Assembly: GCA_018667855.1 (NCBI GenBank)
Contig: JABIRL010000243.1
Location: forward strand, 3,464-67,463
Direction: 5' to 3'
DNA length: 64,000 nucleotides
Source: Rhodospirillaceae bacterium
GTDB taxonomy: Bacteria > Pseudomonadota > Alphaproteobacteria > GCA-2731375
Positions 4,013 to 53,858 of this stretch are shown here, in pieces. Below the pieces are notes generated by a model. That model searched no databases, was not told where the DNA came from, and saw only the letters and a list, made by a program, of their open reading frames with translations. Both the position numbers and the translations under genes were made by a program. The stretch's first letter is position 1. Every line of letters starts with the position of its first letter.

Positions 4013-4054
4013 ATTTGAGTTCCGTTTAGGTGACTAAATTTTAGGTGACCAAAT

Positions 4055-5680
4055 TTAGGCATTGAAATTTCCCGCCACGACAACATCCTGTACCGTGTCA
4101 ATATCGAGCCAATGCCCGGTGGTGTAGATGACGCGGATCGTATTGCCATCCTCAACCAACATATTGATCAGATCGGGCATCTTGAATTGCTGCTGCTCCG
4201 GGTTTGACAATAATTCATTCAAGGCGGATTTCATGATCGGAAATCCCTTGGCCGAAACCTTCAAGAATCCCATCCATTCACCGTGAATTTTGGCCTCTGG
4301 AAAATCGTCGCCGAGGCGCTTCAAACTGACATGCGTGGAAAATGTATCTCTTGAGTTCGGATGACTGCAGATGGCCCAATCGGCCTCTCGCCCGGCATTG
4401 CGGCTATTGACCCAATCCGCATCCACGGTGACGACGAAATCTTCCCCGGGTTCTTCCAGCAACGACAAAATATACTTGTTGAAAAGCACATCGCCGTAGG
4501 AAACAACCATGTCCGTACCTAAGTCGCCGAGATGGTCAACCGCCTGCTTTAGCGAGACCAGTTCGCCGGTGCTTTCATGGCGATCATTGTCCACATAGTC
4601 CAGGCCCGGCACATCGACCGCGTGCTTCATGTAACCGCGCACGACGACGAGCTTTTTTATGCCGGCCAAATTGTAGGTTTCGGCGATGTGGGCTAGCAAG
4701 GGCTTGCCGCGAATATCGATCATGACCTTGGGTTTGTCCTCCGTGAGGGCGCCCAGCTCCTTGCCTCTCGAGGCCGCAAGGATCACCGCGCAGGGTGCCT
4801 TTTCCGCCGATGGAAGATATCGCTTTTCAGCTTCCTTGAGCTCTGCTGCCCCTTGCAGGCGGAAAACCTCGTCAACGCCTGCGACATTGTCCTCGATCGA
4901 CAGCAGGTTCCGTTCGGCGTGGATTTGTTTGGCCGTGCGTTGCATGGCCGTAATGGACGCGCGCAGCAAATGATTGGCCCAAATAGCCAAAGAGAAGCCG
5001 GCATCCTCGAATACCTCCGTGGCCGTGGCGTAATATTTGGTCGGCACGATGACCACGGGGCAGCGGTCAGCCCATTCCGTCTTGAAGGCCAGCACTTCGT
5101 CGGCTACCGCCAGGGCGCTGTGGATCAAAATCGCATCGGCGCCTGCCTCATGATAGGCTTCGGCCCGGCGGAGCGCTTCGCCAAGGCCCCAGCCGGCAAT
5201 GAATGCCTCGACGCGCGCGACAATGCTGAAATCGTCATCCAGCTGGGCATCCTTGCCGGCCTTGATCTTGCCGCAAAATTCGTGGATGTCGGCCAGCGGC
5301 TGTGTGTCGCCCGAAATAAAGCTATTGGTTTTCGGAAAAATCTTGTCTTCGATACAGACCGCCGCAATGCCACGCTGCTCCAGCTTGTGGATCAACCGGC
5401 GGAAGTTGTTAAAACTGCCATAGCCGGTATCACCGTCCAGCATGATCGGCACGCTGCTGGCATCCGACATGAATTCCAATGTTTCCAGGACCTGGGTCCA
5501 GGAAGTCTCGTTGTTGTCGCGCACGCCATACTGCGCGGAAATTGTCAGGCCGCTGCCCCAGATGCCCTTGAAGCCCGCTTCCTCGACAATTTTGGCGCTC
5601 AATCCATTGTGTGCCTCACAAATGAATTCAAGCTCTCCCGAGGTTAGTAGCCCGCGAAAAGCGGTGGTCTTTTTCATCAT
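4055..5680 (-). CDS. pepM: Phosphoenolpyruvate phosphomutase (N-terminal) fused to a LicC-like nucleotidyl(cytidylyl)transferase domain (C-terminal)
   Basis: The N-terminal ~290 aa have the ICL/PEPM fold with the PEP-mutase-specific EDK-x5-NS motif ([13 protein letters not shown]). The C-terminal ~240 aa have an NTP-transferase fold ([13 protein letters not shown]...). The gene is ATGA-coupled to phnW upstream. Confidence 0.85.
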
Positions 5681-6852
5681 GTTCCCGTTCTGTTTAAGCT
5701 GCTTGTTTGATTGGTTGCCTTTGATGCCAGATCGTCGATGCCCATCGCTTCCAGCGTTGCCTTGACGGCAGCCAACGCTGCCCGCATTTCCAGCGCGCCC
5801 AGGGCGCCGATACAGCCGATCCGGAAGCTGTCCGCGAGGGCGAGCTTGCCCGGATAGATGACGAAACCGCGGGCGCTTAAATCGTCGTAGAAACGGGTAA
5901 ACTCGAAGCGGCTGTCGGCCGGCATCAGAAAGGTGACGATAATTGGCGCCTGGACGCTATCGGCCAGCAGGGTTTCAAAGCCGAGCTCGCGCATGCCCTG
6001 GACGAGAATATCGCGATTGCCGCCATAGCGGCGATGACGCGCGGCTACGCCGCCTTCCTCCCGGTGTTCGGCGAGGGCCTGGTCGAACGCCGCCAGTACA
6101 TGGGTCGGCGGCGTGAAGCGCCACTGTCCATTGGCTTCCAGACCGCGCCACTGCTCATAAAGATCCAGGGCCAACGAATGGGCATTGCCCTCGGCCAACT
6201 CCAGCCATTGCCTGGCGATCAGCGCGAAGGCGATGCCCGGAACACCTTCGAAGCATTTGTTGGAGGAGGCAATCAGGGCATCGAAGGGCACGCTGTCGCC
6301 ATCGATCGGAATGGCGCCGAAGGCGCTCATCCCGTCAATGATCAGGCGACGCTTATGGGCCTTCGTGACACGGCCAATCGCCACCATGTCGTTCAATATG
6401 CCGGTGGTGGTTTCGCAATGCACGACCACGACATGCTCGATCGCCGCGTCCTCACGCAAGGCCGCGTCCAGGGCCGTTGGATCGACCTGTTGATCCTCCG
6501 GCCAGCGCAACACCGAAACCTGGTGGCCGATCCGCTCCAGTATCGTCACGATGCGCTTGCCATAGGCGCCGTTTTCCAGAACCAGGGTCCGCTGTCCGGG
6601 CGCGATCAGCGTGCCCAGCGTGGCCTCCACGCCAAAAGTGCCACTGCCCTGCACCGGCACCGCGACATGGCTGTCCGCTACCCTTGCGATGTTCAACAAT
6701 CGATCTTGGATGCGCCTGGTGATGGCGATGAAGTCCGTGTCCCTGGAACCCCAATCGCGCAGCATCGCCTGCTTGGTCGCAAGCGATGTCGTCAACGGGC
6801 CCGGGGTCAGGAGATAATTGTCATTTCCACTATCGTTCATGATCAACCGCAT
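5677..6852 (-). CDS. phnW: 2-aminoethylphosphonate:pyruvate aminotransferase
   Basis: 391 aa class V aminotransferase with the PhnW-typical N-terminus ([11 protein letters not shown]). Its 4-bp overlap with the pepM start indicates translational coupling. Confidence 0.85.
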
Positions 6853-7419
6853 GGCGATTGTCAGATCGAGTGTCCATATTCAATACCTCCCCAAAAGGTT
6901 TGTTGTTTTGCCGGGGCGAAATCACGGCTTGAGCACATGAACCGAGCCGACATTTAAATGTCATCAAGGTCTCGCCGTGACTATTGATCACGGCAACGAC
7001 AGAAACATCGAAGTATCCAAGGCAATGGCCACAGAAGACGTAAAGACCATTGTCGTTGACGACGAGTTTGGCGGCGTATTCGGCGATGGTTTGGGCTAAC
7101 TCTTCAACCGCCGAATGAAGGCAGTACGACCCATGGCTCATCCTGCCAACTCTAAGCTGGCAATGGTCATAATGACGACATCGCCAGAAACGCTCGACAA
7201 TCTCAAATTGAATATTTCCCAGCCTATCGGAATACTACCGGCCACGAAATTTCAGGTAACATTTACGTCGAGGGCGATCCTATCCGATTTCCAATAACAT
7301 AGAAACCTTTATCCCGATACTGGCGGTCCAACAGCCGGATACTGGCAACTTTACTGTGTTCGAAAGACCGCCAATTGATGGATTCTATTGAATTTCTATT
7401 CCGCGACAATTTCTTTTCT

Positions 7420-8988
7420 TCACCGCCTTGGCGGACGTTGTTCGACCACGCCGTCTGGCCCGAGCCGTGTGTTGGCCAGGGTCCGTTCATCGTGGTTCAT
7501 GCGCCAGCTGAGCATTTTTTGCGCATAATCAAGGACCAGTCGGTGATAGGCGGGATCGTCGGCGAGATTGTGAAACTCGTGCGGATCGTTTTCCAGATCG
7601 AAAAATAGCGGCGGCAGACCGGTAAAATGGACGTATTTGTAGCGTTTGTCCCAGAGCAGATTGGCGCTGCACTGATCTGGTGTCAGGCCCAGCGTCCGCC
7701 CGCCGTCAAGCCCCGGAAAATGCCGAAAATCGAACGCCGCATGCGCTTCCTCGCGCCAATCTCGGACGTCGGCGCCGTGGCAGAAAGGCAGCAACGAGGC
7801 GCCGTCACAGGCGGCGGGAACCTCAAGACCCAGCCACTCCAGGATCGTCGGCATGAGATCGACATTCTCGCTGAAGGCCTCGATCGCCGTGCCGCGCGCC
7901 TGGTCGGAGGCGGCGCGCGGGTCACGGATGATCAAAGGGATATGGTAGGTCTGTTGGTAGTAGCTGAATTTCGACATCATCCAATGATCGCCCAACTGCT
8001 CGCCATGATCGGAGGTAAAGACGATTAGGGTCCGCTCCCAAGCGCCCGTCTCTTTCAGATGTGCGATCAGGCGTCCGATTTGGTCATCGATCTCCGTTAT
8101 CATGGCGTAGTAGGTCGCCCTGATTTGCCGTATTTCGGCTTCGCCGATGTCAAGGTAATCCTTCAGCAAAGCGCCATGGGTATAGGCTGCATCCAGCTGG
8201 TTCGAGAGATAAAATCGGGTCCATGGATGCTGCTTGGCTTCTTCCTCGGCGCTGGCACGGCGAACGGGCAGCGGCACGTCCGCCGGATCATAGAGGGCAT
8301 GATAGGGTTCGGGCGCGATATACGGGGGATGCGGCGCGTGATAGGAGATGTGGGCGAACCAGGGTGTCGAGGGGCGGTCCGAGATGTAGGCCAACACCTC
8401 ATCGGTTAGAAAGGCCGCGCCGCTGTCTTCCGCCCGGTACCACGTCGGCGCGTAGGTGCGGCCCCGGCTTGGATCGATACCTTCCCGGTTAGGGCGAAAA
8501 AGCGCGCGTGGATCGTCATCGACCTGATACCCCCGCTGTCGCAACGCATTTTTCCATGCCTGGTAGCTGGCATCCATACGGACCACCGGCGTCAACCCCG
8601 GCAACAGTCCGGCCCGCGTCCTGAGCTCGGGGTCTTCCGGGTCCCGGCCGCGCGGGTCGGCGGCGATATCGGTATATCCGAACAGGGCGGGATCATGGCC
8701 CCCCTTGCGGGCCTCGAGCGCGACATTGGCATGGCGGTCGTCCAGCGGCGTGCCGTTCGTCACCGTGCGGTGATTATGCTGATAGAGGCCCGTGTAGAGG
8801 CTGGCGCGTGCCGGCCCACAGGGCGTGGACTGGGAATAGTGGTGGCGAAACAGGGTGCCCATCGCCGCCAGCGCGTCCAGATGCGGCGTCTTCACGATCG
8901 CATGGCCCTGGGCGGAGAGGCATTCGCCCCGCCACTGATCCGCTGTGATAAAAAGTACGTTTTCCACCGTCTTGCCCGTCGTTGTCAT
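7420..8988 (-). CDS. Sulfatase-family (alkaline-phosphatase superfamily) hydrolase, Cys-type formylglycine motif, no signal peptide; arylsulfatase / phosphonate-monoester-hydrolase-like
   Basis: 522 aa. Residues 10-20 (LFITADQ) begin the sulfatase fold directly, with no signal peptide or TM. The C-x-P-x-R signature (TPCGPARASLYTG) and downstream SDHG metal ligands are present. Confidence 0.8.
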   Translation of the reverse strand: MTTTGKTVENVLFITADQWRGECLSAQGHAIVKTPHLDALAAMGTLFRHHYSQSTPCGPARASLYTGLYQHNHRTVTNGTPLDDRHANVALEARKGGHDPALFGYTDIAADPRGRDPEDPELRTRAGLLPGLTPVVRMDASYQAWKNALRQRGYQVDDDPRALFRPNREGIDPSRGRTYAPTWYRAEDSGAAFLTDEVLAYISDRPSTPWFAHISYHAPHPPYIAPEPYHALYDPADVPLPVRRASAEEEAKQHPWTRFYLSNQLDAAYTHGALLKDYLDIGEAEIRQIRATYYAMITEIDDQIGRLIAHLKETGAWERTLIVFTSDHGEQLGDHWMMSKFSYYQQTYHIPLIIRDPRAASDQARGTAIEAFSENVDLMPTILEWLGLEVPAACDGASLLPFCHGADVRDWREEAHAAFDFRHFPGLDGGRTLGLTPDQCSANLLWDKRYKYVHFTGLPPLFFDLENDPHEFHNLADDPAYHRLVLDYAQKMLSWRMNHDERTLANTRLGPDGVVEQRPPRR

Positions 8989-9008
8989 ATCGGCACCGCG
9001 TTAAACCA

Positions 9009-10307
9009 CTACTGTAGGTCGGCTTGCTGTCTGGTTTCAGCCGCCGCCGGGTCGAGGTAGGTATATTCAACGTCTTTAAATTCACCATAAAGGACACGCA
9101 AATATGCCTCTGGATCATGGGGACAGTCGAAGGTGCCGCCGAGGAAGTCAATTGTCGATGTCGGCAGGACGATCTCTTGCGGCACACCATAGCCGCCGCT
9201 TTCTGTCACTGCCATGGCACCCTTGTGGCTTTGCCTTTCCAGCACCGTTTCACCGTGACTGATAGCCTTTCGGTAAAGTGCCACATCAACCCGGATTTCG
9301 CCGCGAAGACGATAGCGCTCCCAGCGAAAGAGCCATGATTTCGGCGCATCGAAGGAGATCGATATGAGATTTTTCCGTTCGAAAAGATCAATGAAGAAGC
9401 CATCCCGCCTACAGCGTTTGCTGAGCCCGGCGGACAACCTATCCCAACTCATCTCGGCGTCCAGCAGAACCGATATATCGATATCGTCCTTCCAGTCCAG
9501 AAGCGTGCCATTCTCCCGTACGGCACCAAGCAGGCTGCCGCCCTCCAACCAGTACACCGCCCCCATATCGCGCAGGCGGTCGGCGACGTAGTGGCAGATT
9601 TCCCGCATATGTTCGCGGCAGCAGGGCGCGGTGTTGAGGCCAAGACGGTTGACGTAAAGGTTGAAGGGACAGGGCGGCGTATTTTTGCTGCAGCCCCTCC
9701 AACTGACGTTGTCCCCGGACAGCACCAGTTCGCGGATGCCGTGGCGCCGACGGAAGGCCTCTAGATCACCGCCCGCCTGGGTCTCCAGGACCGCCAAATC
9801 GCTATCGTTGAAGGAATGGAGCCGCCGTCGCCGGCCGGCCAAGTGCTGGCGCAAGGACCACGACATTTCAATCATCATGGCGGCCGCCAGCATCGCCTGC
9901 AGCTTGAGGTTCGGCACCGCCAAGCCGGCTGCCAGCGCTGGTGCGAGCAACCACAAGCCTGCATGCTCGGCGTGTTTGGCCAGGAATTCCACCCCTCGAT
10001 TGGCCGGACGGAAGGCAATTCCCGGGGCCGCGACAATGGCAAATATGACAATGATGAAGGCAGCCGATACCGCCAGGCCGATTATGTCCAGACCGATTGT
10101 GTCCAGATCATGGCCCGACAGCGACACCCAGGCCAGGGTAAGGGCCACGAGAAACCCTGTCGTTGCCACGGCAGAGGGGCCAAGCGCGACCCAGTTCCGC
10201 GGAAAGCGCAGGAGGCGAACGAAGGATAGATATGCCGCCACGTAAAGGCCGGCGGCAATCAGCCCGGCGAAAAACTGGGTGACTGCTGAGGCTTCAAAAC
10301 CGGTCAT
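9009..10307 (-). CDS. licD: LicD-family phosphotransferase with N-terminal polytopic membrane domain
   Basis: The C-terminal domain carries the LicD/fukutin motif (VYWLEGGSLLGAVRENGTLLDWKDDIDISV). The N-terminal ~150 aa form 4-6 predicted hydrophobic helices. I prefer the start MTGFEAS at 10307, ATGA-coupled to the upstream NTase. The longer track ORF, which would begin at 10472, has a basic low-complexity 55-aa extension that overlaps the upstream gene. Confidence 0.7.
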   Translation of the reverse strand: MTGFEASAVTQFFAGLIAAGLYVAAYLSFVRLLRFPRNWVALGPSAVATTGFLVALTLAWVSLSGHDLDTIGLDIIGLAVSAAFIIVIFAIVAAPGIAFRPANRGVEFLAKHAEHAGLWLLAPALAAGLAVPNLKLQAMLAAAMMIEMSWSLRQHLAGRRRRLHSFNDSDLAVLETQAGGDLEAFRRRHGIRELVLSGDNVSWRGCSKNTPPCPFNLYVNRLGLNTAPCCREHMREICHYVADRLRDMGAVYWLEGGSLLGAVRENGTLLDWKDDIDISVLLDAEMSWDRLSAGLSKRCRRDGFFIDLFERKNLISISFDAPKSWLFRWERYRLRGEIRVDVALYRKAISHGETVLERQSHKGAMAVTESGGYGVPQEIVLPTSTIDFLGGTFDCPHDPEAYLRVLYGEFKDVEYTYLDPAAAETRQQADLQ

Positions 10308-11143
10308 AAGTCTTGTGCCGCACCTTTGTTGATGTCCTTTGTGCTCACGGTTGTATCGCGGCTTTTCGTTGCCGCCGGTGCGTCGTGCCGGCGACCCGCG
10401 TTCAGCGCGATACGCGGCAGGATTTCGGTTTCGGCGCGCGCGACATCGGCGGCGAAATCGATCTCGATCCAAGGCAACCCGGTGATGTCCTCAAAAGCGA
10501 ATGCGCCCCGTGGTGAGGTCAGCAGCACATCGCGGATCGTCTCCTCGTAGGGCTCGTGGCGGCGGCCTTGGTCCAGATAGAGAGCGGTCTGGGCGATAAT
10601 CAACTGGGCCGCATCGCTGGATAACTTGAACATACCCACGGATTCACCGCAGAAATCGAACCCGGTGCTCAACCATTTGCGGAATTCGACAATCTCGCCG
10701 TCCCGCACACATATCTTGACAGGTTCATCGCCCGGCTCGAAGTCACGATCGAGGAGCAGGCAGTTCCGATGGGGCGAGTTCATCAGACGTTGCAGCAGCT
10801 CTTGGTCATAGAGAATATCGGCATCCATGAGCAGCACCGGGCCGTCGCAACGCAGTTCGTCGCGCACTGTCCACAAGGTGACGATATTGCCCTCCCGATA
10901 ATCCTCATTGAATACCACCCGCACGAAATCCTGCGCGCCCAGGGCCATGATCTCTCGCTCGATTTCCTGGTATTTGTAACCGACGCCCAGCACCAATTCA
11001 TCGATGCCCTGTTGCCTGAGAATTTCGAGGTGATATTCCAGCAACGATTTACCACCGAAGCGCAATAGAACCTTCGGCGGTGGTTCCGTGATACTGGATC
11101 CGAGCCGGGCGCCGATCCCGGCCGCCAACATGACTGCCTTCAT
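10304..11143 (-). CDS. LicC-like sugar-phosphate/phospho-base cytidylyltransferase (stand-alone)
   Basis: 279 aa with an N-terminal MKAVMLAAGIGARLG P-loop-like NTP-transferase signature and overall LicC/PntC-like architecture. Confidence 0.8.
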   Translation of the reverse strand: MKAVMLAAGIGARLGSSITEPPPKVLLRFGGKSLLEYHLEILRQQGIDELVLGVGYKYQEIEREIMALGAQDFVRVVFNEDYREGNIVTLWTVRDELRCDGPVLLMDADILYDQELLQRLMNSPHRNCLLLDRDFEPGDEPVKICVRDGEIVEFRKWLSTGFDFCGESVGMFKLSSDAAQLIIAQTALYLDQGRRHEPYEETIRDVLLTSPRGAFAFEDITGLPWIEIDFAADVARAETEILPRIALNAGRRHDAPAATKSRDTTVSTKDINKGAAQDL

Positions 11144-20047: not shown

Positions 20048-20974
20048 TCAGCCATCCACCATTGGCCGGACTTGCTCCATGAAAACCGTCATGGACTCCT
20101 CAAGCTGCTCGAGGCTGCCGCAGCCGTTGAAGTTCAGTTGGAACTGATCCAGGTCGGCGTCATCGCGGTATTTTCGGATGTCGGCGGCGATGTCGTCGAC
20201 ACTGCCGTGGCCTGCCAATCTGTCGCCATTCGGGCCGTGGGGGTCCTTGCCGGTGATGTCCGAAACATTGATCCGGAAACTCATGCGGATTTCGGGAGGT
20301 ATCTTGCGTCCGATTTTCTCGCAAGCCACCAGCAATTTGGCCTTGTTGGCGATCAGATCGTCCAGAGGCGTGGGCACGGGTTGCCAGACGGCGGCGAATT
20401 CGGCGGCCCGGCGCAGGGCGGCCTTGGACGAGCCGCCGATCCAGATGGGAGGATGCGGCTGTTGCACGGGTTTTGGTGAACAATGCATATCATCGAACTG
20501 GTGATAGGCGCCCTGGAACGAAATCGGGTCGGAAGCCCAGCAAGCCTGACAGACCTTTAGATATTCGTCCGTGCGCGCCCCCCGATCGCCGTGACTGACG
20601 GCAAGGGCGGCGAACTCGCTTTCCAGCCATCCGGCGCCAACGCCAAGGATAATGCGGCCATTGGAAAATTGATCCAGTGTCGCCACGGTCTTGGCGGTCA
20701 GAATGGGGTTGCGGTGGGGCAGGATCAGCACCGAGGTGGCCAACTTAATCCGTTCCGTCCGCGCGGCCAGATAGGCCATGGTCGTCAGGGGTTCGTATAC
20801 ATTACCCCACGATGCCACCATTTCCGGCGGGCCTTTGACGATCAGGTGGTCATTTAGCAAGATGGCGTCAAACCCTAGCGCCTCGGCCCGCTGGGCAGCC
20901 GTGACGATGGCCTCTGGCGTGGCGGGAAAGCCAAGATAGTCGGCGTTGGGGATGCGGAACGAAAATTGCATCAT
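20048..20974 (-). CDS. LLM-class (luciferase-like) flavin/F420-dependent oxidoreductase
   Basis: 308 aa bacterial-luciferase-like TIM barrel (ILGVGAGW). Confidence 0.7.
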   Translation of the reverse strand: MMQFSFRIPNADYLGFPATPEAIVTAAQRAEALGFDAILLNDHLIVKGPPEMVASWGNVYEPLTTMAYLAARTERIKLATSVLILPHRNPILTAKTVATLDQFSNGRIILGVGAGWLESEFAALAVSHGDRGARTDEYLKVCQACWASDPISFQGAYHQFDDMHCSPKPVQQPHPPIWIGGSSKAALRRAAEFAAVWQPVPTPLDDLIANKAKLLVACEKIGRKIPPEIRMSFRINVSDITGKDPHGPNGDRLAGHGSVDDIAADIRKYRDDADLDQFQLNFNGCGSLEQLEESMTVFMEQVRPMVDG

Positions 20975-20984: not shown

Positions 20985-21782
20985 TTACTTATCTTCGAAT
21001 TTCGGGGCCGAGGCGCTGCCGCCGCCGTCCACGGCGATGCGCTGGCCGTTGACGTAGCTGTTGGCTTCCGAGACCAGGAAACAGACCACGTTGGCGATAT
21101 CGTCGGGCTGGCAGACATGGCCGAACGGCATGTGCGCATCCGGTTGGCGCAGATCCTCAATGCCTGATCTCGCCTTGACAAGGCGGCGGCCCATGTCCGT
21201 CTCAACCAGGGGCGGCGCCACGATGTTGGTGCGGATGTTGTTCTTTTGCTCTTCCTTGGCCAGGGTGAAAGCTAATCCTTCCATGGCCGCCTTGCCCATA
21301 TTATAGGGCGCGCCGAACGCGCCGTAGCTGTCCGTCGCGACGGAGGAGATCATGACGATGTCGCCCCGGTCCTGGTCCCGCATCATGGGAATGACCAGTT
21401 TGGAAAGATAATGCGGGCCAAAGGCATGGACCCGGACCACCCGCTCCATCTCCGCCGGCTCGGTGTCGGCGACCGATTGCCCCCGGCTGGCGATGCCGGC
21501 GTTGTTGACCAAAATCCCGACCGGACCCATCTCGCGGCCGATATCGGCCACCATCGCGGTGGCCTGCTCCAGATCCTCGATGGACGCCTGGAATGCCTGC
21601 GCCTTGCGGCCCAAGGCCTGAATTTCCGCTACCGCTTCCGCCGCCGAGGCCTCGTCGCGGCGGTAGTTGACGGCGATATCGGCGCCGTCCTTGGCCAGAG
21701 CCACGGCAATGGCCCGGCCGATCCCTCTGCCCGCACCGGTTACCAGGGCAATGCGTCCGTTTAATGACATGTCGATCTCCAA
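20985..21782 (-). CDS. SDR family oxidoreductase (FabG-like)
   Basis: GRIALVTGAGRGIGRA Rossmann motif, NNAG, and a Y-x3-K catalytic layout. Confidence 0.8.
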   Translation of the reverse strand: MEIDMSLNGRIALVTGAGRGIGRAIAVALAKDGADIAVNYRRDEASAAEAVAEIQALGRKAQAFQASIEDLEQATAMVADIGREMGPVGILVNNAGIASRGQSVADTEPAEMERVVRVHAFGPHYLSKLVIPMMRDQDRGDIVMISSVATDSYGAFGAPYNMGKAAMEGLAFTLAKEEQKNNIRTNIVAPPLVETDMGRRLVKARSGIEDLRQPDAHMPFGHVCQPDDIANVVCFLVSEANSYVNGQRIAVDGGGSASAPKFEDK

Positions 21783-21882
21783 ATGACTGAATTTACTTTG
21801 TTGCGCGGCAAGATATCAGGCTGCTCGATCTTTGAGTAGGAAACATGTGCTATGATTTTCCATGATCAGTGGGGAGGCCGCT

Positions 21883-22839
21883 ATGGGCAACAACGCTATA
21901 GGGATCGAACGGCTGGGCCGCAGCCTTTGTGCCCAGGTGCATGGCGCGGATTTGTCGAAGCCGTTGTCGGATGCCGATTTCGCGGCCATTCACGATGGCC
22001 TGGCGGAACACGAAATGCTGCTGTTTCGCGATCAGGATATCACCGCCTCGTCGCAGCTTGAATTCGGCCGCCGCTTCGGACCGCCCTCGGTGCATCCGTT
22101 CTCACCCAACCTGGCGGATATGCCGGAATTGATCGTGCTGGATAATCACCAGGACAACCCGCCGCGCCTCACGGATATCTGGCACAGCGACGAGACCTTC
22201 CGGGCGGAGCCGCCCATGGCGACAATTCTGCGTTCGACCATTACGCCGAAACTGGGCGGCGATACCATGTTTGCCTCAATGTCGGCAGCTTACGATGATC
22301 TCAGTGATCACTTGCAGCACTTCCTCTCGGGCCTGGAGGCGGTGCACGATTTCAAGCCGTTCCGCACCCTGCTGGCCAACGACGAAGATGGGCACCGCCG
22401 ACTGCGCGAACTGGAAGCGAAATTCCCCCTGCAACACCATCCCGTCGTCCGGCTGCATCCCGTCAGCGGCCGCAAGGTGATTTTCGTCAATCCGCAATTC
22501 ACCATCGGCATCAAGGGCATGGACGAACGGGAAGCCCAGCCGCTGCTGGCCATGCTGTTTGATTTGGCCAAGGTGCCGGAATATCAATACCGCCTGCAAT
22601 GGCAGCCGAATACTTTGGCGATCTGGGACAATCGCTCGGTACTGCATTACGCCATTCATGACTACCAACCGCAGCGCCGTCGCATGGAGCGGATCACCAT
22701 TTGCGGCGACCGGCCCTTTGGCGTTCAGGACGGCCGGCAGGTGCCGTTAATCGCGCGTCAGCCCATCGCGGCCGAGACGCCATCGGCCGTCGAGGCGGAG
22801 CCGGTGCGCGAAGTCTATCGAGGGGGGCGCAACGCATGA
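21883..22839 (+). CDS. tauD: Taurine dioxygenase-like Fe(II)/2-oxoglutarate dioxygenase (TauD/TfdA family)
   Basis: Long collinear blocks match E. coli TauD as I recall it from memory (LSKPLSD, FLRDQ, WHSDETF HxD motif, HPVVRLHPVSG, AIWDNRSVLHYA). Start is either 21862 or 21883. Confidence 0.8.
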   Translation: MGNNAIGIERLGRSLCAQVHGADLSKPLSDADFAAIHDGLAEHEMLLFRDQDITASSQLEFGRRFGPPSVHPFSPNLADMPELIVLDNHQDNPPRLTDIWHSDETFRAEPPMATILRSTITPKLGGDTMFASMSAAYDDLSDHLQHFLSGLEAVHDFKPFRTLLANDEDGHRRLRELEAKFPLQHHPVVRLHPVSGRKVIFVNPQFTIGIKGMDEREAQPLLAMLFDLAKVPEYQYRLQWQPNTLAIWDNRSVLHYAIHDYQPQRRRMERITICGDRPFGVQDGRQVPLIARQPIAAETPSAVEAEPVREVYRGGRNA

Positions 22840-23678
22840 TACTGGTGCAAATATCGGACACCCATATCGATGAGCCTGATACGTTGGTTTACGGCCATTT
22901 CGATACATCCCTGGCTTTGGCCCAGGCAGTCGCGGCGATCAATGCCATGGACCCCGCGCCAGATCTGGTGCTGCACACAGGTGACATCGCCTCCCATGGC
23001 AGCGTGCCCCGGTACGAAGCCTTCAAGGCCATCGTCGACGAACTAAAGGCGCCCTTGGCGCTTATGCCTGGCAATCACGATGACCGGGATGCGCTGCGGG
23101 AAGTCTTCGGCGGTACGCAACGACTGCCGGCGACCGGCGATTTCCTGCATTTCGTCATCGACGACCAGACGGTGCGGATTATCTGTTGCGATAGCGTGAT
23201 CGCCGGCGATACGCCGGGCGAGATGTGCGCGGAGCGACTGGCCTGGCTGGATGAACAATTGGGCGCGGCAACGGACCGTCCCACCATTGTCGCCCTGCAT
23301 CATCCACCCTTCTATTCGGGCATGACCGGCAGCTCAGCCAAGGGATTGAAAAATGGCGGCGGTGAACTGGATGCCCTGCTGCGCCGCCACCCCCAGGTCG
23401 TACGCGTCCTGGCCGGCCATTCACACCGGCCCATGACCACGGCCTTTGGCGGCACTATTGCCTTTGCCGGACCCACCACCTGCTATCCCTTCGGCCTGGA
23501 TACCGGGCCGGAGCGGGTCCTGAACGTCACCTACGAGCCGCCGGCATATGCCGTACATTTATGGCTGGGAGACGCATCGCCCGCCGGCGCCGATCTGGTT
23601 ACACACACTGTGCCGATAGGCGACTGGCCGGCGCCCATGGCTCTCTTGAAGGCCGGCGTAAAAGTATTGGACGTTTAA
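22836..23678 (+). CDS. Calcineurin-like metallophosphoesterase, GpdQ/CpdA class (phosphodiesterase)
   Basis: MILVQISDTHID...HTGDI...PGNHDD motifs I-III and the GHSHR motif. The ATG overlaps the tauD stop (ATGA). Confidence 0.75.
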   Translation: MILVQISDTHIDEPDTLVYGHFDTSLALAQAVAAINAMDPAPDLVLHTGDIASHGSVPRYEAFKAIVDELKAPLALMPGNHDDRDALREVFGGTQRLPATGDFLHFVIDDQTVRIICCDSVIAGDTPGEMCAERLAWLDEQLGAATDRPTIVALHHPPFYSGMTGSSAKGLKNGGGELDALLRRHPQVVRVLAGHSHRPMTTAFGGTIAFAGPTTCYPFGLDTGPERVLNVTYEPPAYAVHLWLGDASPAGADLVTHTVPIGDWPAPMALLKAGVKVLDV

Positions 23679-23729
23679 CGCCATCGTCGTTGAAGTTTGA
23701 TAGGGCTGTCGGCGGGTGAACTGATCAAC

Positions 23730-24524
23730 CTAAACCGTGGCGGTGACCATGAATTGCGGCAGTATGAAAAGATAGCTGCCGTCGGCAATTGCGGCGTCGA
23801 CCTCGGCCATCACTGCGTCAATCTCGGCCTCCGGCAAGCTGCCACCGGCGCGAGCATACGAGGCAATATTGCGGATCACTCCGGCGAATTGACCATCAGT
23901 ATCAATCGTGGGCAGGATGCCCAAGTCGATTGTAGAATAACCGGCGGTTTGGCATAGGCCGTAAAGCTTGCGGCCAAGCAAAGGTGATTTGTAGGCGTGA
24001 CTGGCCGCCGATATCAAAGCCGCGGTCCGCGCCTGCGACAACGGCTCGAAAACATAAAAACCCCAATCGTTGTCGGTAACATGCAGGCGTCCGCCAGGCG
24101 CTAACACCCGGTGGCAGTCCTGTATGCTGGCCAATGGGTCATCGACATATTTCAGGACGTTCTTGCACAAGATCCGATCAATCGAGCCGTCCTCGAAGGG
24201 CAACCGGTCGTCGCTCATGTGATGCACGGTGATCCTGTCCGTCAGCCCTTCGGCTTGCGCCCGTTCACGTGTGCGCCGGACGAATTTTTCATTGATATCC
24301 ATGGCATGAACGTGGCCGCCCGGCCCGACCCGTTTGGCCAGTTCGACGCACATTTGACCCGGCCCACAACCATAATCTACTACGACTTGATCCGGCCCAA
24401 AACCCGCCGGGGCAATCAGGGGTTCCAACTCTGGCGACCATGCAAATACCTGCTCGTATACTTCGTGCCGCTCTTCCGCCACTTCGACCCAGTGGTCCCG
24501 GTAAAAGGTATCCAACGGCACCAT
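23730..24524 (-). CDS. Class I SAM-dependent methyltransferase
   Basis: VDYGCGPG motif I and a Methyltransf_11-like fold. Confidence 0.75.
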   Translation of the reverse strand: MVPLDTFYRDHWVEVAEERHEVYEQVFAWSPELEPLIAPAGFGPDQVVVDYGCGPGQMCVELAKRVGPGGHVHAMDINEKFVRRTRERAQAEGLTDRITVHHMSDDRLPFEDGSIDRILCKNVLKYVDDPLASIQDCHRVLAPGGRLHVTDNDWGFYVFEPLSQARTAALISAASHAYKSPLLGRKLYGLCQTAGYSTIDLGILPTIDTDGQFAGVIRNIASYARAGGSLPEAEIDAVMAEVDAAIADGSYLFILPQFMVTATV

Positions 24525-26308: not shown

Positions 26309-27472
26309 ATGACAAATTCAGAAACCAGCGGCCCCATATCCGCCTTGGAACATTCCGAAACCATGGCGGCCTATATTCGCCAGGGTGAACAACGGGCCCA
26401 TGCCCTGAGCAATCGCGGTCCCATCAAGCTGGACGGTTCCGGCAATTTGGATGCCGCCATTTTGGAAGCTTATTGGCGACACGGCTTCTACGTTTTTGAG
26501 AATGTCATTGGCGAAGAGGAACTGGCCGAGCTTCGCGCCGACGTGGCGCGGGTTCTGGCGGGGGCACCCACGGCGCCGGATGGCGGATATGATGCCCAGG
26601 GAAATCCGGCCATCGGCGGCGAATTTGCCCTGCCTCCCTATGGCTGGGCCAAACCGTTGAGCGATCCCTTGGGCGGCACGTCCAAGAACAAGGGCCGCCA
26701 TCCGGTCAAGATGCAGGATCCGACGCCGCCCGCCGACGGACCGGATTGGACCATCGAACGCTTGCGGGGAAACCTGCAATTGATGGAGTCCTGTGTTCGT
26801 TTGTATGGACATCCCGGCCTGTTGGCTGTGGCGGCGGCGGTCAACGGCGATGATTTCGTGCCGTACAACGAAGTGGTTTTCATCAAGGAACCGGGCCTGG
26901 GGCCGTCGGTCGCCTGGCACCAGGACGGCACCACCCATTGGGATGCGCCCGATTGGGATCAGGGGGCGCATGGCTTCAATTTCATGGCGCAGCTTTATCC
27001 CTCCACCGCCGGCAACGGCGTCTGGGTGCTGCCCGGCAGTCACAAGCTGGGTAAGGTTGATATCAAGAAACTGGTGGCGGACAGTGGATCCGAACGTATC
27101 GAAGGCGCGGTGCCTTTGTTGTGCCAGGCCGGTGATGTCTTCATCACTAACCGCCAGGCGGTGCATGGCTCCTTCGCCAATTCATCGCCCGATAGGCGCG
27201 TTACATTGAATGAGGGCTTTTTCCCGCGAAATCGCGTGCTGGATGTCTCCACCAGCAAACTGGACGGCACCGCCGTGTCCTATGACGCGGAACAGATCCA
27301 AGAACGCAGCCGTCTGATCGCCGTCGCCACCGACGCCCGGCGCCAGCGTTTTCCCGATGAAGCGCAATATCGGTATCGCCCGCTGATCGGCCAGGAAGAC
27401 GATAACAGATGGAATGCCGAAACCCGCGAGACCCTGGTGAAAGATTACAACATCAAGGACTTCTACATTTAA
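26309..27472 (+). CDS. Phytanoyl-CoA dioxygenase (PhyH) family Fe(II)/2OG oxygenase
   Basis: WHQDGTTHW HxD motif, a distal H, and a PhyH-like length. Confidence 0.7.
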   Translation: MTNSETSGPISALEHSETMAAYIRQGEQRAHALSNRGPIKLDGSGNLDAAILEAYWRHGFYVFENVIGEEELAELRADVARVLAGAPTAPDGGYDAQGNPAIGGEFALPPYGWAKPLSDPLGGTSKNKGRHPVKMQDPTPPADGPDWTIERLRGNLQLMESCVRLYGHPGLLAVAAAVNGDDFVPYNEVVFIKEPGLGPSVAWHQDGTTHWDAPDWDQGAHGFNFMAQLYPSTAGNGVWVLPGSHKLGKVDIKKLVADSGSERIEGAVPLLCQAGDVFITNRQAVHGSFANSSPDRRVTLNEGFFPRNRVLDVSTSKLDGTAVSYDAEQIQERSRLIAVATDARRQRFPDEAQYRYRPLIGQEDDNRWNAETRETLVKDYNIKDFYI

Positions 27473-36322: not shown

Positions 36323-37438
36323 CTATTCCGCCGCCTGGATGGTTTGCGTGACGTGCGCCTTGGCGTCAAACTCCTCGGCCACCTTTTCATCCGCCGCCAG
36401 CAGCGCATCCACATCCAGGTTCGGGTCGCAGAATTCCAGCAGGCCCATCTTCTCGAACGCCGCCTGTACGTTATCCGACCACATACCGATATCGCGCACG
36501 ATGGGGACGATGCGGCTGAATAGGCGGGTACGGAACAAACGCATGCTTTCCGAGGCCTCGACCCATTCGATGCATTCCTTGGCCGGCAGACCAACCACCT
36601 CCCACAGTTCATTGGAGGTGAAGCGGTCCCGCATATGCCAGCACCCTTCGATCAGGAACTCTTCCCGCTCGGCCATTTCCGAAGCGCTGAGGTGCGGGTA
36701 GTAGTCCCGCAGGGCCAGGCGGCCAAAGGCCACGTGGCGGGCCTCATCCTGCATGACATAGGCGTTGACCGATGCCGACAGGGGATTCTTGGACATGTCG
36801 CGCAGGCCGTGAAAGGCGGCCAGGGCCAGCCCCTCGATCAGCACCTGCATGCCCAGATAATTGAAGTCCCAGCGTTTGTCGTGCAGGACATCCTCCAACA
36901 GCGAAGCCAAGGGCGGCGTGATCGGGTAAGCCAGCTCAAACTTGTCATGCAACAGACGGGAATAGGCCTCAACATGGCGCGCTTCGTCCATGACTTGGGT
37001 CGCGGCGTAGAATTTGGCATTGATGTCGGGCACGGTTTCGACGATCCGGGCCGAGACCATCAAGGCGCCCTGTTCGCCGTGCAAAAACTGCGAGATCTGC
37101 CAGGCTTGGCCGTGGCGGCGCAGATTGATGCGCTCCTTCTTCGTCATCTTATCCCAGATGGGCGAGCCGTAGATGCGGATCATTTCATCGGGCATTTCCA
37201 TGGGATTTTCCGGGTCCAGGTCCAGATCCCAATCGATCCGTTCCTTGGCATCCCACTGTTGCTGCTTGCCCTTGTCGTACAGCTTCAACAGATCGTCATT
37301 GCCGTCCTCATATTCCCAAACGAAGGTGACATCGTTTTGGCTGTTCACTTTCCATTCGGTTTCTTCGACCGGCAACTGATAGCGATACATCGAAGTCATG
37401 GCTGTTTCCCTGTTATTGTTTTCCCAAGCGCGTTGCAT
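36323..37438 (-). CDS. Ferritin-like diiron-carboxylate protein (acyl-ACP-desaturase / R2-like fold)
   Basis: Two DEARH (E-x-x-H) motifs about 90 aa apart, with upstream Glu residues. 371 aa. Confidence 0.55.
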   Translation of the reverse strand: MQRAWENNNRETAMTSMYRYQLPVEETEWKVNSQNDVTFVWEYEDGNDDLLKLYDKGKQQQWDAKERIDWDLDLDPENPMEMPDEMIRIYGSPIWDKMTKKERINLRRHGQAWQISQFLHGEQGALMVSARIVETVPDINAKFYAATQVMDEARHVEAYSRLLHDKFELAYPITPPLASLLEDVLHDKRWDFNYLGMQVLIEGLALAAFHGLRDMSKNPLSASVNAYVMQDEARHVAFGRLALRDYYPHLSASEMAEREEFLIEGCWHMRDRFTSNELWEVVGLPAKECIEWVEASESMRLFRTRLFSRIVPIVRDIGMWSDNVQAAFEKMGLLEFCDPNLDVDALLAADEKVAEEFDAKAHVTQTIQAAE

Positions 37439-38426: not shown

Positions 38427-38625
38427 AGTCAGCCGTTTGTGGTTTCGGCTAATCCATTCCTGCGGCGTTTTGGCGCGGCTTTGGACGCTATAACGCGGTG
38501 ATAAAATATGCTTAACTAAATCAACATGTTTTTGACGCTATGATTTTTGCGTCAATCAACGAAATCGCCGACCAGTTTGTATGTGGGGGTCCTGGTTCGC
38601 GATTAGGGGTTCAAGGGGATCCAGG

Positions 38626-39381
38626 ATGAATCTTTCGCGTAGTCAAACCGAACCGGTGAACGGCATGGTATGCCGGCGCTCAGAGGCATCAACTGCGGGC
38701 AGTTTCTGTCAAAACTGCGTGGTCCGCACCAGGGCGTTTTGCGCTGTTCTGGACGATGATGCCTTGGCGCGGCTGGATCAAAGTCACACCATCGTCAATC
38801 TGGACAGCGAGGACGGCCTGTTCATGGAGGGCGATGACGCCACGTCGTTTTTCACGGTTCTGTCAGGCGCTTTGCGGCTGTCAAAACTTTTGCCTGACGG
38901 CCGGCGGCAAATTACCGGCTTTGTCCTGCCGGGTGAATTTGTCGGCCTGTCGGCCGGGGACACTTATGTCGATAACGCGGAAGCATTGACCGAGGCCAGC
39001 CTTTGCCGTTTCACGGTTTCCGATCTGAAGCGAATAGGGCAGGATAATCCGGAAATGGACAGCCAGATGCTGGCCATGACAAACAACACCCTGACACAGG
39101 CGCGGGATCATATGCTGTTGTTGGGCCGGATGAAGGCGCCGGAAAAAATCGCCAGCTTCCTCACCAGTCTGCTTGATCGGGCGTCGGCGGCGGATCAACC
39201 GACCGACCCCCTGGCCCTGCCCATGAGCCGGGCGGACATCGCGGACTATCTTGGATTGACCATCGAGACGGTCAGCCGCACATTTACCCGGTTGAAGGCG
39301 GACAAGATCATTGCCCTGCCGGAGCATAATCGGGTCAGCGTCAATAATATGGAAGCACTGGTCCAGTTGGCCGAAGGCTGA
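38626..39381 (+). CDS. fnr: Crp/Fnr family transcriptional regulator, FnrN/FnrL-type (C-x2-C-x7-C N-terminal cluster)
   Basis: cNMP-binding domain, a C-terminal HTH (ADIADYLGLTIETVSRTFTRL), an N-terminal FCQNCVVRTRAFC cluster and a fourth Cys in the beta-roll. Confidence 0.8.
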   Translation: MNLSRSQTEPVNGMVCRRSEASTAGSFCQNCVVRTRAFCAVLDDDALARLDQSHTIVNLDSEDGLFMEGDDATSFFTVLSGALRLSKLLPDGRRQITGFVLPGEFVGLSAGDTYVDNAEALTEASLCRFTVSDLKRIGQDNPEMDSQMLAMTNNTLTQARDHMLLLGRMKAPEKIASFLTSLLDRASAADQPTDPLALPMSRADIADYLGLTIETVSRTFTRLKADKIIALPEHNRVSVNNMEALVQLAEG

Positions 39382-45737: not shown

Positions 45738-45898
45738 GGGCGGGGCATAATATTAGTTAGCCGGTGACCGGGCGGATGCCATGACGTTCCGCCCGCATTG
45801 CCGGCGGGCACGATGTGCGATTAATATCACCCTCAGTGGCCGGGACAGTATGCGAACCGCATCAAATGCGGCCTCGGCTTGGCAGAGGGAGACGCATC

Positions 45899-48087: not shown

Positions 48088-48131
48088 AGAGAACCACTCG
48101 GCGCTTGGCCGATCATCAAGGAGATTAGTTC

Positions 48132-49211: not shown

Positions 49212-49221
49212 GCCCGGCGTC

Positions 49222-52459: not shown

Positions 52460-52565
52460 GGGTCCGGCACCCCTACAATATGAACTTGAATTGAGACTAA
52501 ATGTGAATTCGTCGAAATGCGGCGGCCGGATCAGTCCGGCCGCCGCAAATCATGATGACGACTTC

Positions 52566-53726: not shown

Positions 53727-53858
53727 TGTACTCCCCTGAATTTTCAATGCGGCGTAGATGCCGCTGTCACCGATGATTTTTGTTTTTCAAAGGAATTCTG
53801 GAGCAATTCGGTGCCGCTGACAATAGAAGAGCCGAAAAGGGCAATCGCGGCGTCGAAA

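What the first reader, a model, noticed from the sequence alone, without database searches (positions are those of the whole stretch)
21883..23678. Translationally coupled TauD-like 2OG dioxygenase and GpdQ/CpdA-like metallophosphodiesterase
The TauD homologue matches the E. coli taurine dioxygenase blocks I recall, but no tauABC transporter genes are nearby. The dioxygenase is instead fused at the operon level (ATGA) to a binuclear metallophosphoesterase of the promiscuous glycerophosphodiesterase class. A 2OG-dioxygenase and phosphoesterase pair recalls the two-step oxidative C-P cleavage logic (PhnY*/PhnZ), although PhnZ is HD-type rather than calcineurin-type. It also recalls alkyl-sulfate or phosphoester scavenging. 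The pair may hydroxylate an organophosphonate, organosulfonate or phosphodiester and then hydrolyse it, which is notable given the phosphonate biosynthesis locus 10 kb away.
Basis: partly seen in the sequence, partly recalled or inferred. Interest (0 to 1): 0.55.

Follow-up and report, generated by a model that had tools for sequence, protein, structure and literature searches.

The report
TauD-like dioxygenase and phosphodiesterase: accidental neighbours
Two real, intact enzyme genes (an iron/2-oxoglutarate dioxygenase related to taurine dioxygenase, and a two-metal phosphodiesterase) do overlap by four bases. They became neighbours only because a gene that sits between them in close relatives was deleted, so they are probably not a dedicated two-step pathway.

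Summary
A 318-aa TauD-family gene (21883-22839, +) and a 280-aa class-III (GpdQ/Rv0805/CpdA-type) metallophosphodiesterase gene (22836-23678, +) overlap in ATGA. Both keep all catalytic residues, both are under purifying selection, and five independent assemblies carry the same junction.

The pathway interpretation does not hold. In the closest syntenic relatives the operon is tauD-hpaB-PDE. One relative with tauD directly before the PDE still carries an 85-nt relic of the hpaB 3' end between them. Other relatives kept hpaB-PDE and deleted tauD, leaving tauD relics. Others have tauD followed by unrelated genes and no PDE. PDE orthologues 77-83% identical are also coupled to an SsuA-like protein (after a PhyH dioxygenase) or to a type-I phosphodiesterase. 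None of 80 PDE-family loci from species genomes has a window-type TauD directly upstream.

The dioxygenase belongs to a conserved, uncharacterised sister clade of taurine dioxygenase (47% identity to E. coli TauD). It keeps the Fe, 2OG and sulfonate-clamp residues, but the residues that bind taurine's amine are replaced.

The phosphonate locus makes 2-AEP-type surface decoration. It lies 10-16 kb away behind housekeeping genes.

Verdict: ordinary co-transcribed accessory genes, of low interest.

The parts
21883..22839 (+). Gene for a TauD-family Fe(II)/2-oxoglutarate dioxygenase (318 aa). It belongs to a conserved non-taurine sister clade with a C-terminal tail of about 40 aa.
   Evidence: Pfam TauD 227 bits. 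NCBIfam taurine dioxygenase equivalog 288.7 bits, below the 313 cut-off. Best solved relative is E. coli TauD at 252 bits and 47% identity. H101/D103/H255, T128/R266 and H71/R270 are kept, while the positions of Y73, N95 and S158 are S, T and P. dN/dS is 0.10-0.15.
22836..23678 (+). Gene for a cytoplasmic class-III (calcineurin-fold, two-metal) phosphodiesterase (280 aa).
   Evidence: Pfam Metallophos 70 bits. PDB matches are GpdQ at 116 bits and Rv0805 at 92 bits, with 32% and 34% identity. The ligands D8, H10, D50, N80, H155/156, H195 and H197 are kept. NCBIfam SpdA 132.8 (cut-off 400) and CpdA 108.7 (cut-off 225). dN/dS is 0.06-0.13. There is no N-terminal signal sequence, because the catalytic motif starts at residue 6.
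22836..22839 (+). ATGA start/stop overlap between the two genes. The PDE ribosome-binding site GAGGGGGG (22820-22827) lies inside the 3' end of the TauD gene.
   Evidence: Sequence read directly. No promoter-like or + strand terminator-like site lies between the genes. The relative L176 has an 85-nt hpaB relic at this position.
21783..21882 (.). Divergent control region shared with the SDR gene. Conserved blocks are GCGGCAAGATATCAG (21805-21819), TTGAGTAG (21832-21839) and GTGCTATGATTTT (21847-21859, which resembles an extended -10 element), followed by the ribosome-binding site GGGGAGG (21871-21877).
   Evidence: Alignment of six orthologous intergenic regions. The blocks are invariant or nearly so whether tauD or hpaB is the first gene downstream. 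That they act as a promoter or operator is inference.
20985..21782 (-). Divergently transcribed short-chain dehydrogenase/reductase gene. It is the conserved anchor of the variable slot. The likely true start is ATG 21770.
   Evidence: Pfam adh_short 170 bits. It is 85-93% identical in L084, L089, L093, L168, L169 and L175, always next to the variable operon.
20048..20974 (-). Luciferase-like monooxygenase gene (TIGR03619 class), the second anchor gene.
   Evidence: Pfam Bac_luciferase 193 bits. NCBIfam TIGR03619 233.7 bits, above the 166.9 cut-off. It is 80-83% identical to the window protein in L084, L168 and L169, and also present in L089 and L093.

Best explanation
These are two independently acting cytoplasmic enzymes, transcribed together from a conserved control region shared with a divergent SDR-LLM gene pair. 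The site is a slot where accessory genes are frequently gained and lost.

Gene 1 is an Fe(II)/2-oxoglutarate dioxygenase from an uncharacterised sister clade of taurine dioxygenase. It keeps the iron triad, the 2OG ligands and the His/Arg clamp that holds a sulfonate or sulfate group in TauD and AtsK. The residues that hold taurine's ammonium group are replaced. Most likely (inference) it hydroxylates the carbon next to an anionic sulfonate or sulfate-ester group of a substrate other than taurine, releasing sulfite or sulfate and an aldehyde. The substrate may be related to aromatic compounds.

Gene 2 is a two-metal phosphodiesterase of the GpdQ/Rv0805/CpdA class. It hydrolyses a phosphodiester whose identity cannot be read from the sequence; it could be an imported diester or a cyclic nucleotide.

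The direct ATGA coupling was produced by deletion of an hpaB-like flavin monooxygenase gene from an ancestral tauD-hpaB-PDE operon. It ensures co-expression but does not indicate that one enzyme feeds the other.

Shown: gene identities, catalytic residues, the overlap, purifying selection, the alternative gene orders and the deletion relics. Inferred: substrates, promoter function, and the absence of metabolic coupling.
For: Gene identities and intact active sites. Purifying selection on both genes.

Gene orders next to the same LLM-SDR anchor:
- Window and L177-L181: SDR|tauD-PDE.
- L084: SDR|tauD-hpaB-PDE.
- L175: SDR|tauD-hpaB.
- L089 and L093: SDR|hpaB-PDE.
- L168 and L169: SDR|tauD|adenylate-cyclase-like gene.

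In L174, where the anchor lies outside the contig, tauD is followed by an unidentified 332-aa ORF and no PDE.

Deletion relics:
- The 85-nt spacer in L176 aligns to the last ~70 nt of hpaB, at the correct collinear position. The score is 52, against 25 +/- 3 (maximum 38) for 300 shuffles.
- The SDR-hpaB spacer of L089 encodes TauD residues 1-26 (58% identity) and 287-314 (46%).

Other partners of PDE orthologues 77-83% identical: UbiD...|hpaB-PDE, PhyH-SsuA-like-PDE, and a type-I phosphodiesterase-PDE pair with a 4-nt overlap.

None of 80 PDE-family loci from GTDB species genomes has a window-type TauD directly upstream. TauD-clade members 61-70% identical sit in other contexts and have no PDE nearby.

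The taurine-binding roles of His70/Arg270 and of Asp94/Asn95/Ser158/Tyr73 are taken from PMC9304159 and PMC12951627.
Against: The tauD-PDE order recurs in at least two lineages about 80% identical (window and L176), and both genes stay under purifying selection after the loss of hpaB, so continued joint use is not excluded.

The PDE subclade sits repeatedly at the 3' end of operons rich in oxygenases (TauD, HpaB, PhyH, 2OG-Fe(II)). This could reflect a shared theme rather than chance.

No substrate has been tested. The sulfonate/sulfate assignment rests on two conserved clamp residues and on homology.
Confidence: 0.68

Rival explanations
1. The dioxygenase hydroxylates an organophosphonate, organosulfonate or phosphodiester and the metallophosphoesterase then hydrolyses the product. 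This would be a calcineurin-fold analogue of PhnY*/PhnZ, possibly recycling the cell's own phosphonates.
For: The 4-nt overlap makes co-expression likely. The dioxygenase is not a canonical taurine enzyme. A 2-AEP-type phosphonate biosynthesis locus lies at 2.9-11.1 kb. The tauD-PDE order is also seen in L176.
Against: The pair arose by deletion of hpaB, and each gene is dispensable in close relatives. No PhnY or PhnZ model is matched. PhnZ-type C-P cleavage is oxidative HD-domain chemistry (established knowledge; review PMC8177086 listed), not hydrolysis. The phosphonate genes are biosynthetic and separated from the pair by housekeeping genes.
Confidence: 0.06
2. A modular scavenging theme. 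The PDE clade is a dedicated terminal enzyme of several ester-scavenging or catabolic operons (tauD-hpaB-PDE, PhyH-SsuA-like-PDE, NPP-PDE). It frees an alcohol or phenol, or phosphate, from an imported phosphodiester, and the variable oxygenases process the organic part. The window would hold a trimmed version of one such module.
For: The PDE is the constant 3' gene behind TauD, HpaB, PhyH plus an SsuA-like protein, or a type-I phosphodiesterase, often with start/stop overlaps. More distant family members follow ABC importers (30 loci) or precede MFS transporters (16 loci), which fits import-and-hydrolyse scavenging. The TauD clade sits in neighbourhoods of aromatic catabolism and sulfatase genes.
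Against: The partner genes share no common chemistry. Orthologues 60-71% identical have no oxygenase directly upstream: for example GFA(-)|PDE-MFS in L102, L002 and L100, and no same-strand ORF upstream in L098 and L099. tauD and hpaB were each lost while the PDE stayed, which argues for independence. There is no transporter next to the pair in the window.
Confidence: 0.16
3. Plain housekeeping reading. Gene 1 is a genuine taurine dioxygenase used for sulfur acquisition, and gene 2 is a cyclic-nucleotide phosphodiesterase (CpdA/SpdA-like) with a signalling role.
For: E. coli TauD is the best characterised relative, and the equivalog score falls just short (288.7 against 313). The best NCBIfam hits for the PDE are SpdA and CpdA, and public sources label it cAMP phosphodiesterase. 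In L168 and L169 an adenylate-cyclase-like gene occupies the slot after tauD. A Crp-family regulator is encoded at 38581-39381.
Against: The Tyr73, Asp94/Asn95 and Ser158 positions are replaced throughout the clade. No taurine transporter genes were found. The PDE scores lie far below both equivalog cut-offs, and it is as similar to GpdQ as to Rv0805. The source names are automatic annotations.
Confidence: 0.1

Closest known systems
E. coli taurine/2-oxoglutarate dioxygenase TauD (PDB 1GQW, 1OS7)
   Same: Same fold and family. 47% identity over 273 residues. The iron triad (His/Asp/His), the 2OG ligands (Thr126, Arg266) and the sulfonate clamp (His70, Arg270) are all conserved.
   Different: The score is below the NCBIfam equivalog cut-off. 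Tyr73 is replaced by Ser/Ala, Asp94-Asn95 by Arg-Leu-Thr or Trp-Gly-Thr, Ser158 by Pro and Val102 by Glu across the whole clade. There is an extra C-terminal tail of 35-45 aa. There is no tauABC. Relatives sit among aromatic-catabolism genes.
AtsK (P. putida) and Rv3406 alkyl-sulfate ester dioxygenases
   Same: TauD-family enzymes that hold an anionic sulfur group with the same kind of His/Arg clamp and release it by alpha-hydroxylation. This is the chemistry proposed here for a non-amine substrate.
   Different: They are much more distant in sequence (147 and 143 bits, against 252 for TauD). I did not make a residue-level comparison of the tail-binding pocket.
GpdQ (Enterobacter aerogenes glycerophosphodiesterase, PDB 2ZO9, 3D03)
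   Same: Best solved match (116 bits). 32% identity over residues 1-217. All seven ligands of the two-metal site are conserved. More distant family members are linked to ABC importers.
   Different: The C-terminal ~60 residues do not align. Similarity to the cyclic-nucleotide enzyme Rv0805 is equal (34%). There is no transporter next to the window gene.
Class-III cyclic-nucleotide phosphodiesterases CpdA, Rv0805 and SpdA
   Same: Same catalytic domain and motifs. These give the best NCBIfam hits.
   Different: Scores are far below the equivalog cut-offs (132.8 against 400; 108.7 against 225). No specificity determinant could be tested.
PhnY*/PhnZ and TmpA/TmpB oxidative C-P cleavage pairs
   Same: Only the general picture: a 2OG dioxygenase gene next to a metal-dependent phospho-enzyme gene.
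   Different: PhnZ and TmpB are HD-domain di-iron oxygenases, whereas this PDE is a calcineurin-fold hydrolase. The dioxygenase matches no PhnY model. The pairing is not conserved.

Membership tests
TauD/TfdA family of Fe(II)/2OG dioxygenases (PF02668) | Full-length match above the Pfam gathering score | tested here: met
   227.1 bits against a cut-off of 27, covering profile positions 5-267 of 267.
TauD/TfdA family of Fe(II)/2OG dioxygenases (PF02668) | HXD...H iron triad plus the Thr/Arg 2OG ligands | tested here: met
   H101, D103, H255, T128 and R266 align with E. coli H99, D101, H255, T126 and R266. They are invariant in 22 aligned sequences.
Taurine dioxygenase proper (NCBIfam NF007104 equivalog) | Score at or above the curated equivalog cut-off | tested here: not met
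   288.7 bits against a cut-off of 313.
Taurine dioxygenase proper (NCBIfam NF007104 equivalog) | Sulfonate clamp His70/Arg270 | tested here: met
   H71 and R270 are conserved and invariant in the clade. Their roles are taken from PMC9304159 and PMC12951627.
Taurine dioxygenase proper (NCBIfam NF007104 equivalog) | Residues that bind taurine's amine (Tyr73, Asp94/Asn95, Ser158) | tested here: not met
   Ser74, (Arg-Leu-)Thr97 and Pro159 occupy these positions. The replacements are conserved across the clade.
Taurine dioxygenase proper (NCBIfam NF007104 equivalog) | Linkage to the tauABC transporter genes | tested here: not met
   No tauABC-like genes were found among the window ORFs scanned or next to clade members.
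Class-III / calcineurin-like metallophosphodiesterases (PF00149; GpdQ, Rv0805, CpdA) | Motifs D-x-H, GD, GNH[DE], H and GHxH, which provide the seven metal ligands | tested here: met
   D8, H10, D50, N80, H81, H155/H156, H195 and H197 are present and invariant in 16 homologues.
GpdQ-type glycerophosphodiesterase | Activity on glycerophosphodiesters and alkyl diesters, and the hexameric cap domain | not testable with these tools
   Only the catalytic domain (residues 1-217) aligns, at 32% identity.
cAMP phosphodiesterase CpdA / 2',3'-cNMP phosphodiesterase SpdA (NCBIfam equivalogs) | Score at or above the equivalog cut-off | tested here: not met
   CpdA 108.7 against 225; SpdA 132.8 against 400.
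PhnY*/PhnZ-type oxidative C-P cleavage pair | A PhnY-type hydroxylase together with an HD-domain di-iron oxygenase | tested here: not met
   The dioxygenase hits only the TauD, ScoE and PtlD models. The second protein is Metallophos, not HD.
Conserved two-gene functional module (tauD + PDE) | Adjacency kept across related genomes | tested here: not met
   Only the window population and L176 show it. Relatives have tauD-hpaB-PDE, hpaB-PDE, tauD followed by other genes, or the PDE behind other genes. None of 80 GTDB loci shows it.

The most novel reading that the evidence does not exclude
The marine PDE subclade is a dedicated last step in a set of interchangeable oxygenase-plus-phosphodiesterase operons (tauD-hpaB-PDE, PhyH-SsuA-like-PDE, NPP-PDE). 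These operons would oxidatively process and then dephosphorylate, or first hydrolyse and then oxidise, phosphodiester or phosphonate-ester components of marine dissolved organic matter. The window's TauD-PDE pair would then be a working minimal version that uses a non-taurine TauD-like enzyme.
Probability: 0.08. Interest if true: 0.6.

Novelty: new member of a known kind. Interest (0 to 1): 0.2.

Why it matters
The pair itself matters little. It warns against reading pathway logic into a start/stop overlap, because here the overlap is the scar of a gene deletion.

Two by-products may be useful:
- A large, conserved, uncharacterised sister clade of taurine dioxygenase occurs in marine Alphaproteobacteria. 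It keeps the sulfonate/sulfate clamp but has a rebuilt distal pocket and a C-terminal tail. It is a candidate for new organosulfur (or other anionic-substrate) chemistry.
- A GpdQ-like phosphodiesterase subclade is repeatedly placed as the last gene behind different oxygenases. The PhyH-SsuA-like-PDE operon of relatives is a better place than this window to look for new oxidative phosphorus or sulfur scavenging.

Tried and rejected
- **Sulfoquinovose dioxygenase (SqoD).** I considered it as a model for a non-taurine sulfonate dioxygenase next to LLM and SDR genes. I rejected it because SqoD is only 15.5% identical to E. coli TauD and lacks the His/Arg clamp (PMC12951627), whereas this protein is 47% identical and keeps the clamp.
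- **Literature.** A search for GpdQ together with TauD returned no papers. A search on GpdQ gave nothing about gene context.
- **Promoter and terminator scan.** The consensus scan of 21600-24000 found nothing between the genes and nothing above shuffle expectation. It did not pick up the conserved upstream blocks.
- **hpaB in the window.** tblastn at E <= 1e-5 found no hpaB copy or protein-level relic anywhere in the window. Relaxed to E <= 10 on 22601-22900, it still found none at the junction. Only L176 keeps a relic.
- **Nucleotide alignment of the window junction to the L176 spacer.** It gave an ambiguous GC-rich match (score 56), which I did not use as evidence.
- **Link to the phosphonate locus.** Rejected, because those genes are biosynthetic and housekeeping genes intervene.
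- **Not done.** I did not run structure prediction or fold search, because sequence matches to solved TauD and GpdQ structures were already unambiguous. I could not build a proper TauD/AtsK/TfdA/PhnY tree, because reference sequences other than E. coli TauD were not retrievable. I used the ranking of bit scores against PDB chains instead.
Full report
**1. What is there**

The window is about 60% G+C. The PDE protein is identical to one that NCBI lists from a 'MAG: Rhodospirillaceae bacterium'.

The first gene runs 21883-22839 on the + strand and encodes 318 aa. Its start is fixed by the ribosome-binding site GGGGAGG 6 nt upstream and by the N-termini of orthologues. It is a full-length TauD/TfdA-family protein (Pfam 227 bits).

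The second gene starts at ATG 22836. This ATG overlaps the TGA of the first gene in ATGA and is preceded by GAGGGGGG. The gene ends at 23678. It encodes a 280-aa calcineurin-like metallophosphoesterase (Pfam 70 bits).

The junction is genuine. Five other assemblies carry exactly the same arrangement and sequence.

Four-base overlaps are common in this window; at least four other gene pairs have them. The overlap shows probable co-translation and nothing more.

**2. The dioxygenase**

The best solved relative is E. coli TauD (252 bits). It is followed by P. putida TauD (212), a Burkholderia TauD (180), RdpA (175), PlaO1 (171), AtsK (147), Rv3406 (143) and ScoE (98).

Identity to E. coli TauD is 47%. 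The NCBIfam taurine-dioxygenase equivalog gives 288.7 bits, just under its 313 cut-off.

| Role in E. coli TauD | E. coli residues | This protein |
|---|---|---|
| Iron ligands | H99, D101, H255 | H101, D103, H255 (kept) |
| 2OG ligands | T126, R266 | T128, R266 (kept) |
| Sulfonate clamp | H70, R270 | H71, R270 (kept) |
| Taurine amine network | Y73, D94/N95, S158 | Ser, Arg-Leu-Thr, Pro (replaced) |

The residue roles come from PMC9304159 and PMC12951627.

An alignment of 20 relatives 53-82% identical shows that these replacements define a clade. Its signatures are HPF(S/A)P, PP(RL/WG)TDxWHSDETF and HDFKPF, plus a C-terminal tail of 35-45 aa that E. coli TauD lacks.

The clade is large. It supplies most of the 120 best of 5,683 hits at E <= 1e-40, mostly from marine Alphaproteobacteria.

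Clade members 61-70% identical sit in these contexts:
- a tandem of two TauD-family genes (L170);
- a LigXa-type Rieske oxygenase, a dehydratase and an RraA-like protein (L172);
- two SDR genes, a CMD-family gene and a sulfatase (L182);
- a TAXI-TRAP transporter, pcaHG/pcaB/pcaC and a sulfatase (L183).

This points to a substrate that is not taurine, is anionic, and may be related to aromatic compounds. That conclusion is inference. SqoD is not a model for it.

**3. The phosphodiesterase**

The best solved matches are GpdQ (116 bits, 32% identity over 1-217) and Rv0805 (92 bits, 34% identity). All seven metal ligands are present and invariant among homologues.

The NCBIfam SpdA and CpdA equivalogs are hit far below their cut-offs. 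The sequence cannot decide between a non-cyclic diester and a cyclic nucleotide as substrate.

There is no signal sequence, so the enzyme is cytoplasmic.

Among the 167 loci analysed, most of them family members 37-46% identical, an ABC-transporter ATPase lies directly upstream in 30. A permease lies two genes upstream in 18. An MFS transporter follows within two genes in 16. This fits an import-and-hydrolyse role for the wider family. The window has no such transporter next to the pair.

**4. Is the pair a unit?**

I collected 80 loci from species-representative genomes and 80 metagenome loci. I added contigs that encode specific homologues. I then mapped the neighbours by tblastn.

Next to the same conserved LLM-SDR anchor (80-93% identical proteins) there are four arrangements:

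| Arrangement | Loci |
|---|---|
| SDR\|tauD-PDE | window, L177-L181 |
| SDR\|tauD-hpaB-PDE | L084; L175 is cut inside hpaB |
| SDR\|hpaB-PDE | L089, L093 |
| SDR\|tauD\|adenylate-cyclase-like gene, no PDE | L168, L169 |

L176 (TauD 82% identical) also has tauD followed by the PDE, but its SDR side is off the contig. In L174 tauD is followed by an unidentified 332-aa ORF and no PDE.

PDE orthologues 77-83% identical also occur in these orders:
- UbiD...|hpaB-PDE (L081-L083);
- PhyH-SsuA-like-PDE, with a convergent 2OG-Fe(II) oxygenase gene (L001, L004, L092; L090 and L091 show the same order but no PhyH match was reported upstream);
- a type-I phosphodiesterase gene followed by the PDE with a 4-nt overlap (L086, L087).

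Orthologues 60-71% identical mostly have no oxygenase directly upstream. None of the 80 species-genome loci has a window-type TauD directly upstream.

**5. How the adjacency arose**

In L176 the two genes are separated by 85 nt. This spacer aligns with the last ~70 nt of hpaB from L081, at exactly the collinear position. The score is 52, against 25 +/- 3 (maximum 38) for 300 shuffles.

Conversely, the 330-nt SDR-hpaB spacer of L089 still encodes TauD residues 1-26 and 287-314. L093 has the homologous spacer at nucleotide level. This is an internal deletion of tauD.

The ancestral operon was therefore tauD-hpaB-PDE. The window lineage lost hpaB and trimmed the relic down to an ATGA overlap. Other lineages lost tauD instead. 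The PDE survived in both.

Both window genes remain under purifying selection: dN/dS is 0.10-0.15 for tauD and 0.06-0.13 for the PDE.

The upstream control region has blocks that are invariant whichever gene comes first (window 21805-21819, 21832-21839 and 21847-21859). This suggests that one regulatory input drives whatever occupies the slot.

**6. The phosphonate locus**

The genes at 2858-11143 encode the following:
- a phosphonopyruvate-decarboxylase-like ThDP enzyme;
- a PEP mutase fused to a nucleotidyltransferase;
- a class-V aminotransferase;
- a sulfatase-family protein;
- LicD;
- a further nucleotidyltransferase.

This is biosynthesis and attachment of a 2-AEP-type head group, not catabolism. 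A polyprenyl synthetase gene, leuB, leuD, leuC, trmD and ffh lie between it and the pair. Nothing links the two loci.

**7. Verdict**

The hydroxylate-then-hydrolyse idea and the PhnY*/PhnZ analogy are not supported.

The most likely reading (confidence about 0.68) is two independent enzymes co-transcribed in a variable accessory slot. Their direct coupling is a deletion scar.

A modular 'oxygenase plus PDE' scavenging theme remains possible (about 0.16). So does the plain taurine-dioxygenase plus cNMP-phosphodiesterase reading (about 0.10).

Novelty is limited to new members of known enzyme families. Interest is low (0.2).

Noticed in passing
L001:5286-8017, L004:6118-8843, L092:3133-5834 (also L090, L091): In PDE orthologues 77-79% identical, the PDE is start/stop-coupled to an SsuA/NMT1-like binding-protein homologue. 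In L001, L004 and L092 that gene is preceded by a PhyH-family dioxygenase. The dioxygenase's best solved match is the uncharacterised 'monooxygenase' 6ZYK (155 bits), and it has a weak 29-bit hit to a methylphosphonate hydroxylase model. The operon is flanked by a convergent 2OG-Fe(II) oxygenase gene and, in L001, L004 and L092, by a sodium:solute symporter gene; L001 also has another TauD-family gene.
   Followed up: partly
L089:2054-2380 and L093:1059-1377: The spacer between the SDR and hpaB genes of L089 contains decayed 5' and 3' fragments of tauD (residues 1-26 and 287-314), showing an internal deletion of the dioxygenase gene. L093 has the homologous spacer at nucleotide level.
   Followed up: yes
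window 21805-21859: Three sequence blocks are invariant across six orthologous divergent control regions: GCGGCAAGATATCAG, TTGAGTAG and GTGCTATGATTTT. The spacing between the last two varies in L084. The regulator is unknown.
   Followed up: partly
window 2858-11143 (- strand): A phosphonate head-group biosynthesis and attachment cluster. It encodes a Ppd-like ThDP enzyme, a PEP mutase fused to a nucleotidyltransferase, a class-V aminotransferase, a sulfatase-family protein, LicD and a second nucleotidyltransferase. It probably makes a cell-surface 2-AEP-type decoration.
   Followed up: partly
L168:4259-5518 and L169 from 4930: In relatives whose TauD is 80% identical, the position after tauD is taken by a gene for an adenylate-cyclase-domain protein with a CadC/TPR-like region. 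A cyclic-nucleotide cyclase-like gene and a class-III phosphodiesterase-like gene thus alternate in the same slot. This may be coincidence.
   Followed up: no
window 26309-27472 (+) and L098:2093-3238 (-): The 387-aa PhyH-family dioxygenase encoded 2.6 kb downstream of the PDE has a 64% identical orthologue about 1.8 kb from the PDE orthologue in L098. This is a second recurrence of PhyH-type dioxygenases near this PDE clade.
   Followed up: no
window 23730-24524 (-): A class-I SAM methyltransferase gene lies between the PDE and BNR genes in the window but is absent at that position in the syntenic L084. This is further evidence that the slot is variable. A 32% identical methyltransferase gene is near hpaB-PDE in L081.
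   Followed up: no
L005-L080 and L111-L167 (PDE family, 37-46% identical): Most distant family members sit behind ABC importer genes (ATPase directly upstream in 30 loci, permease two genes upstream in 18, binding protein in 8-9) or before an MFS transporter gene (16 loci). This suggests phosphodiester import and hydrolysis for the wider family.
   Followed up: partly
window 36323-37438, 41960-43558, 45815-50355: The window is rich in oxygenase genes: an AurF-like di-iron N-oxygenase, a GMC oxidoreductase, a Rieske ring-hydroxylating alpha subunit, a second luciferase-like monooxygenase and an FAD monooxygenase. A Crp-family regulator gene lies at 38581-39381 and a TAXI-TRAP transporter at 50432-53747.
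   Followed up: no
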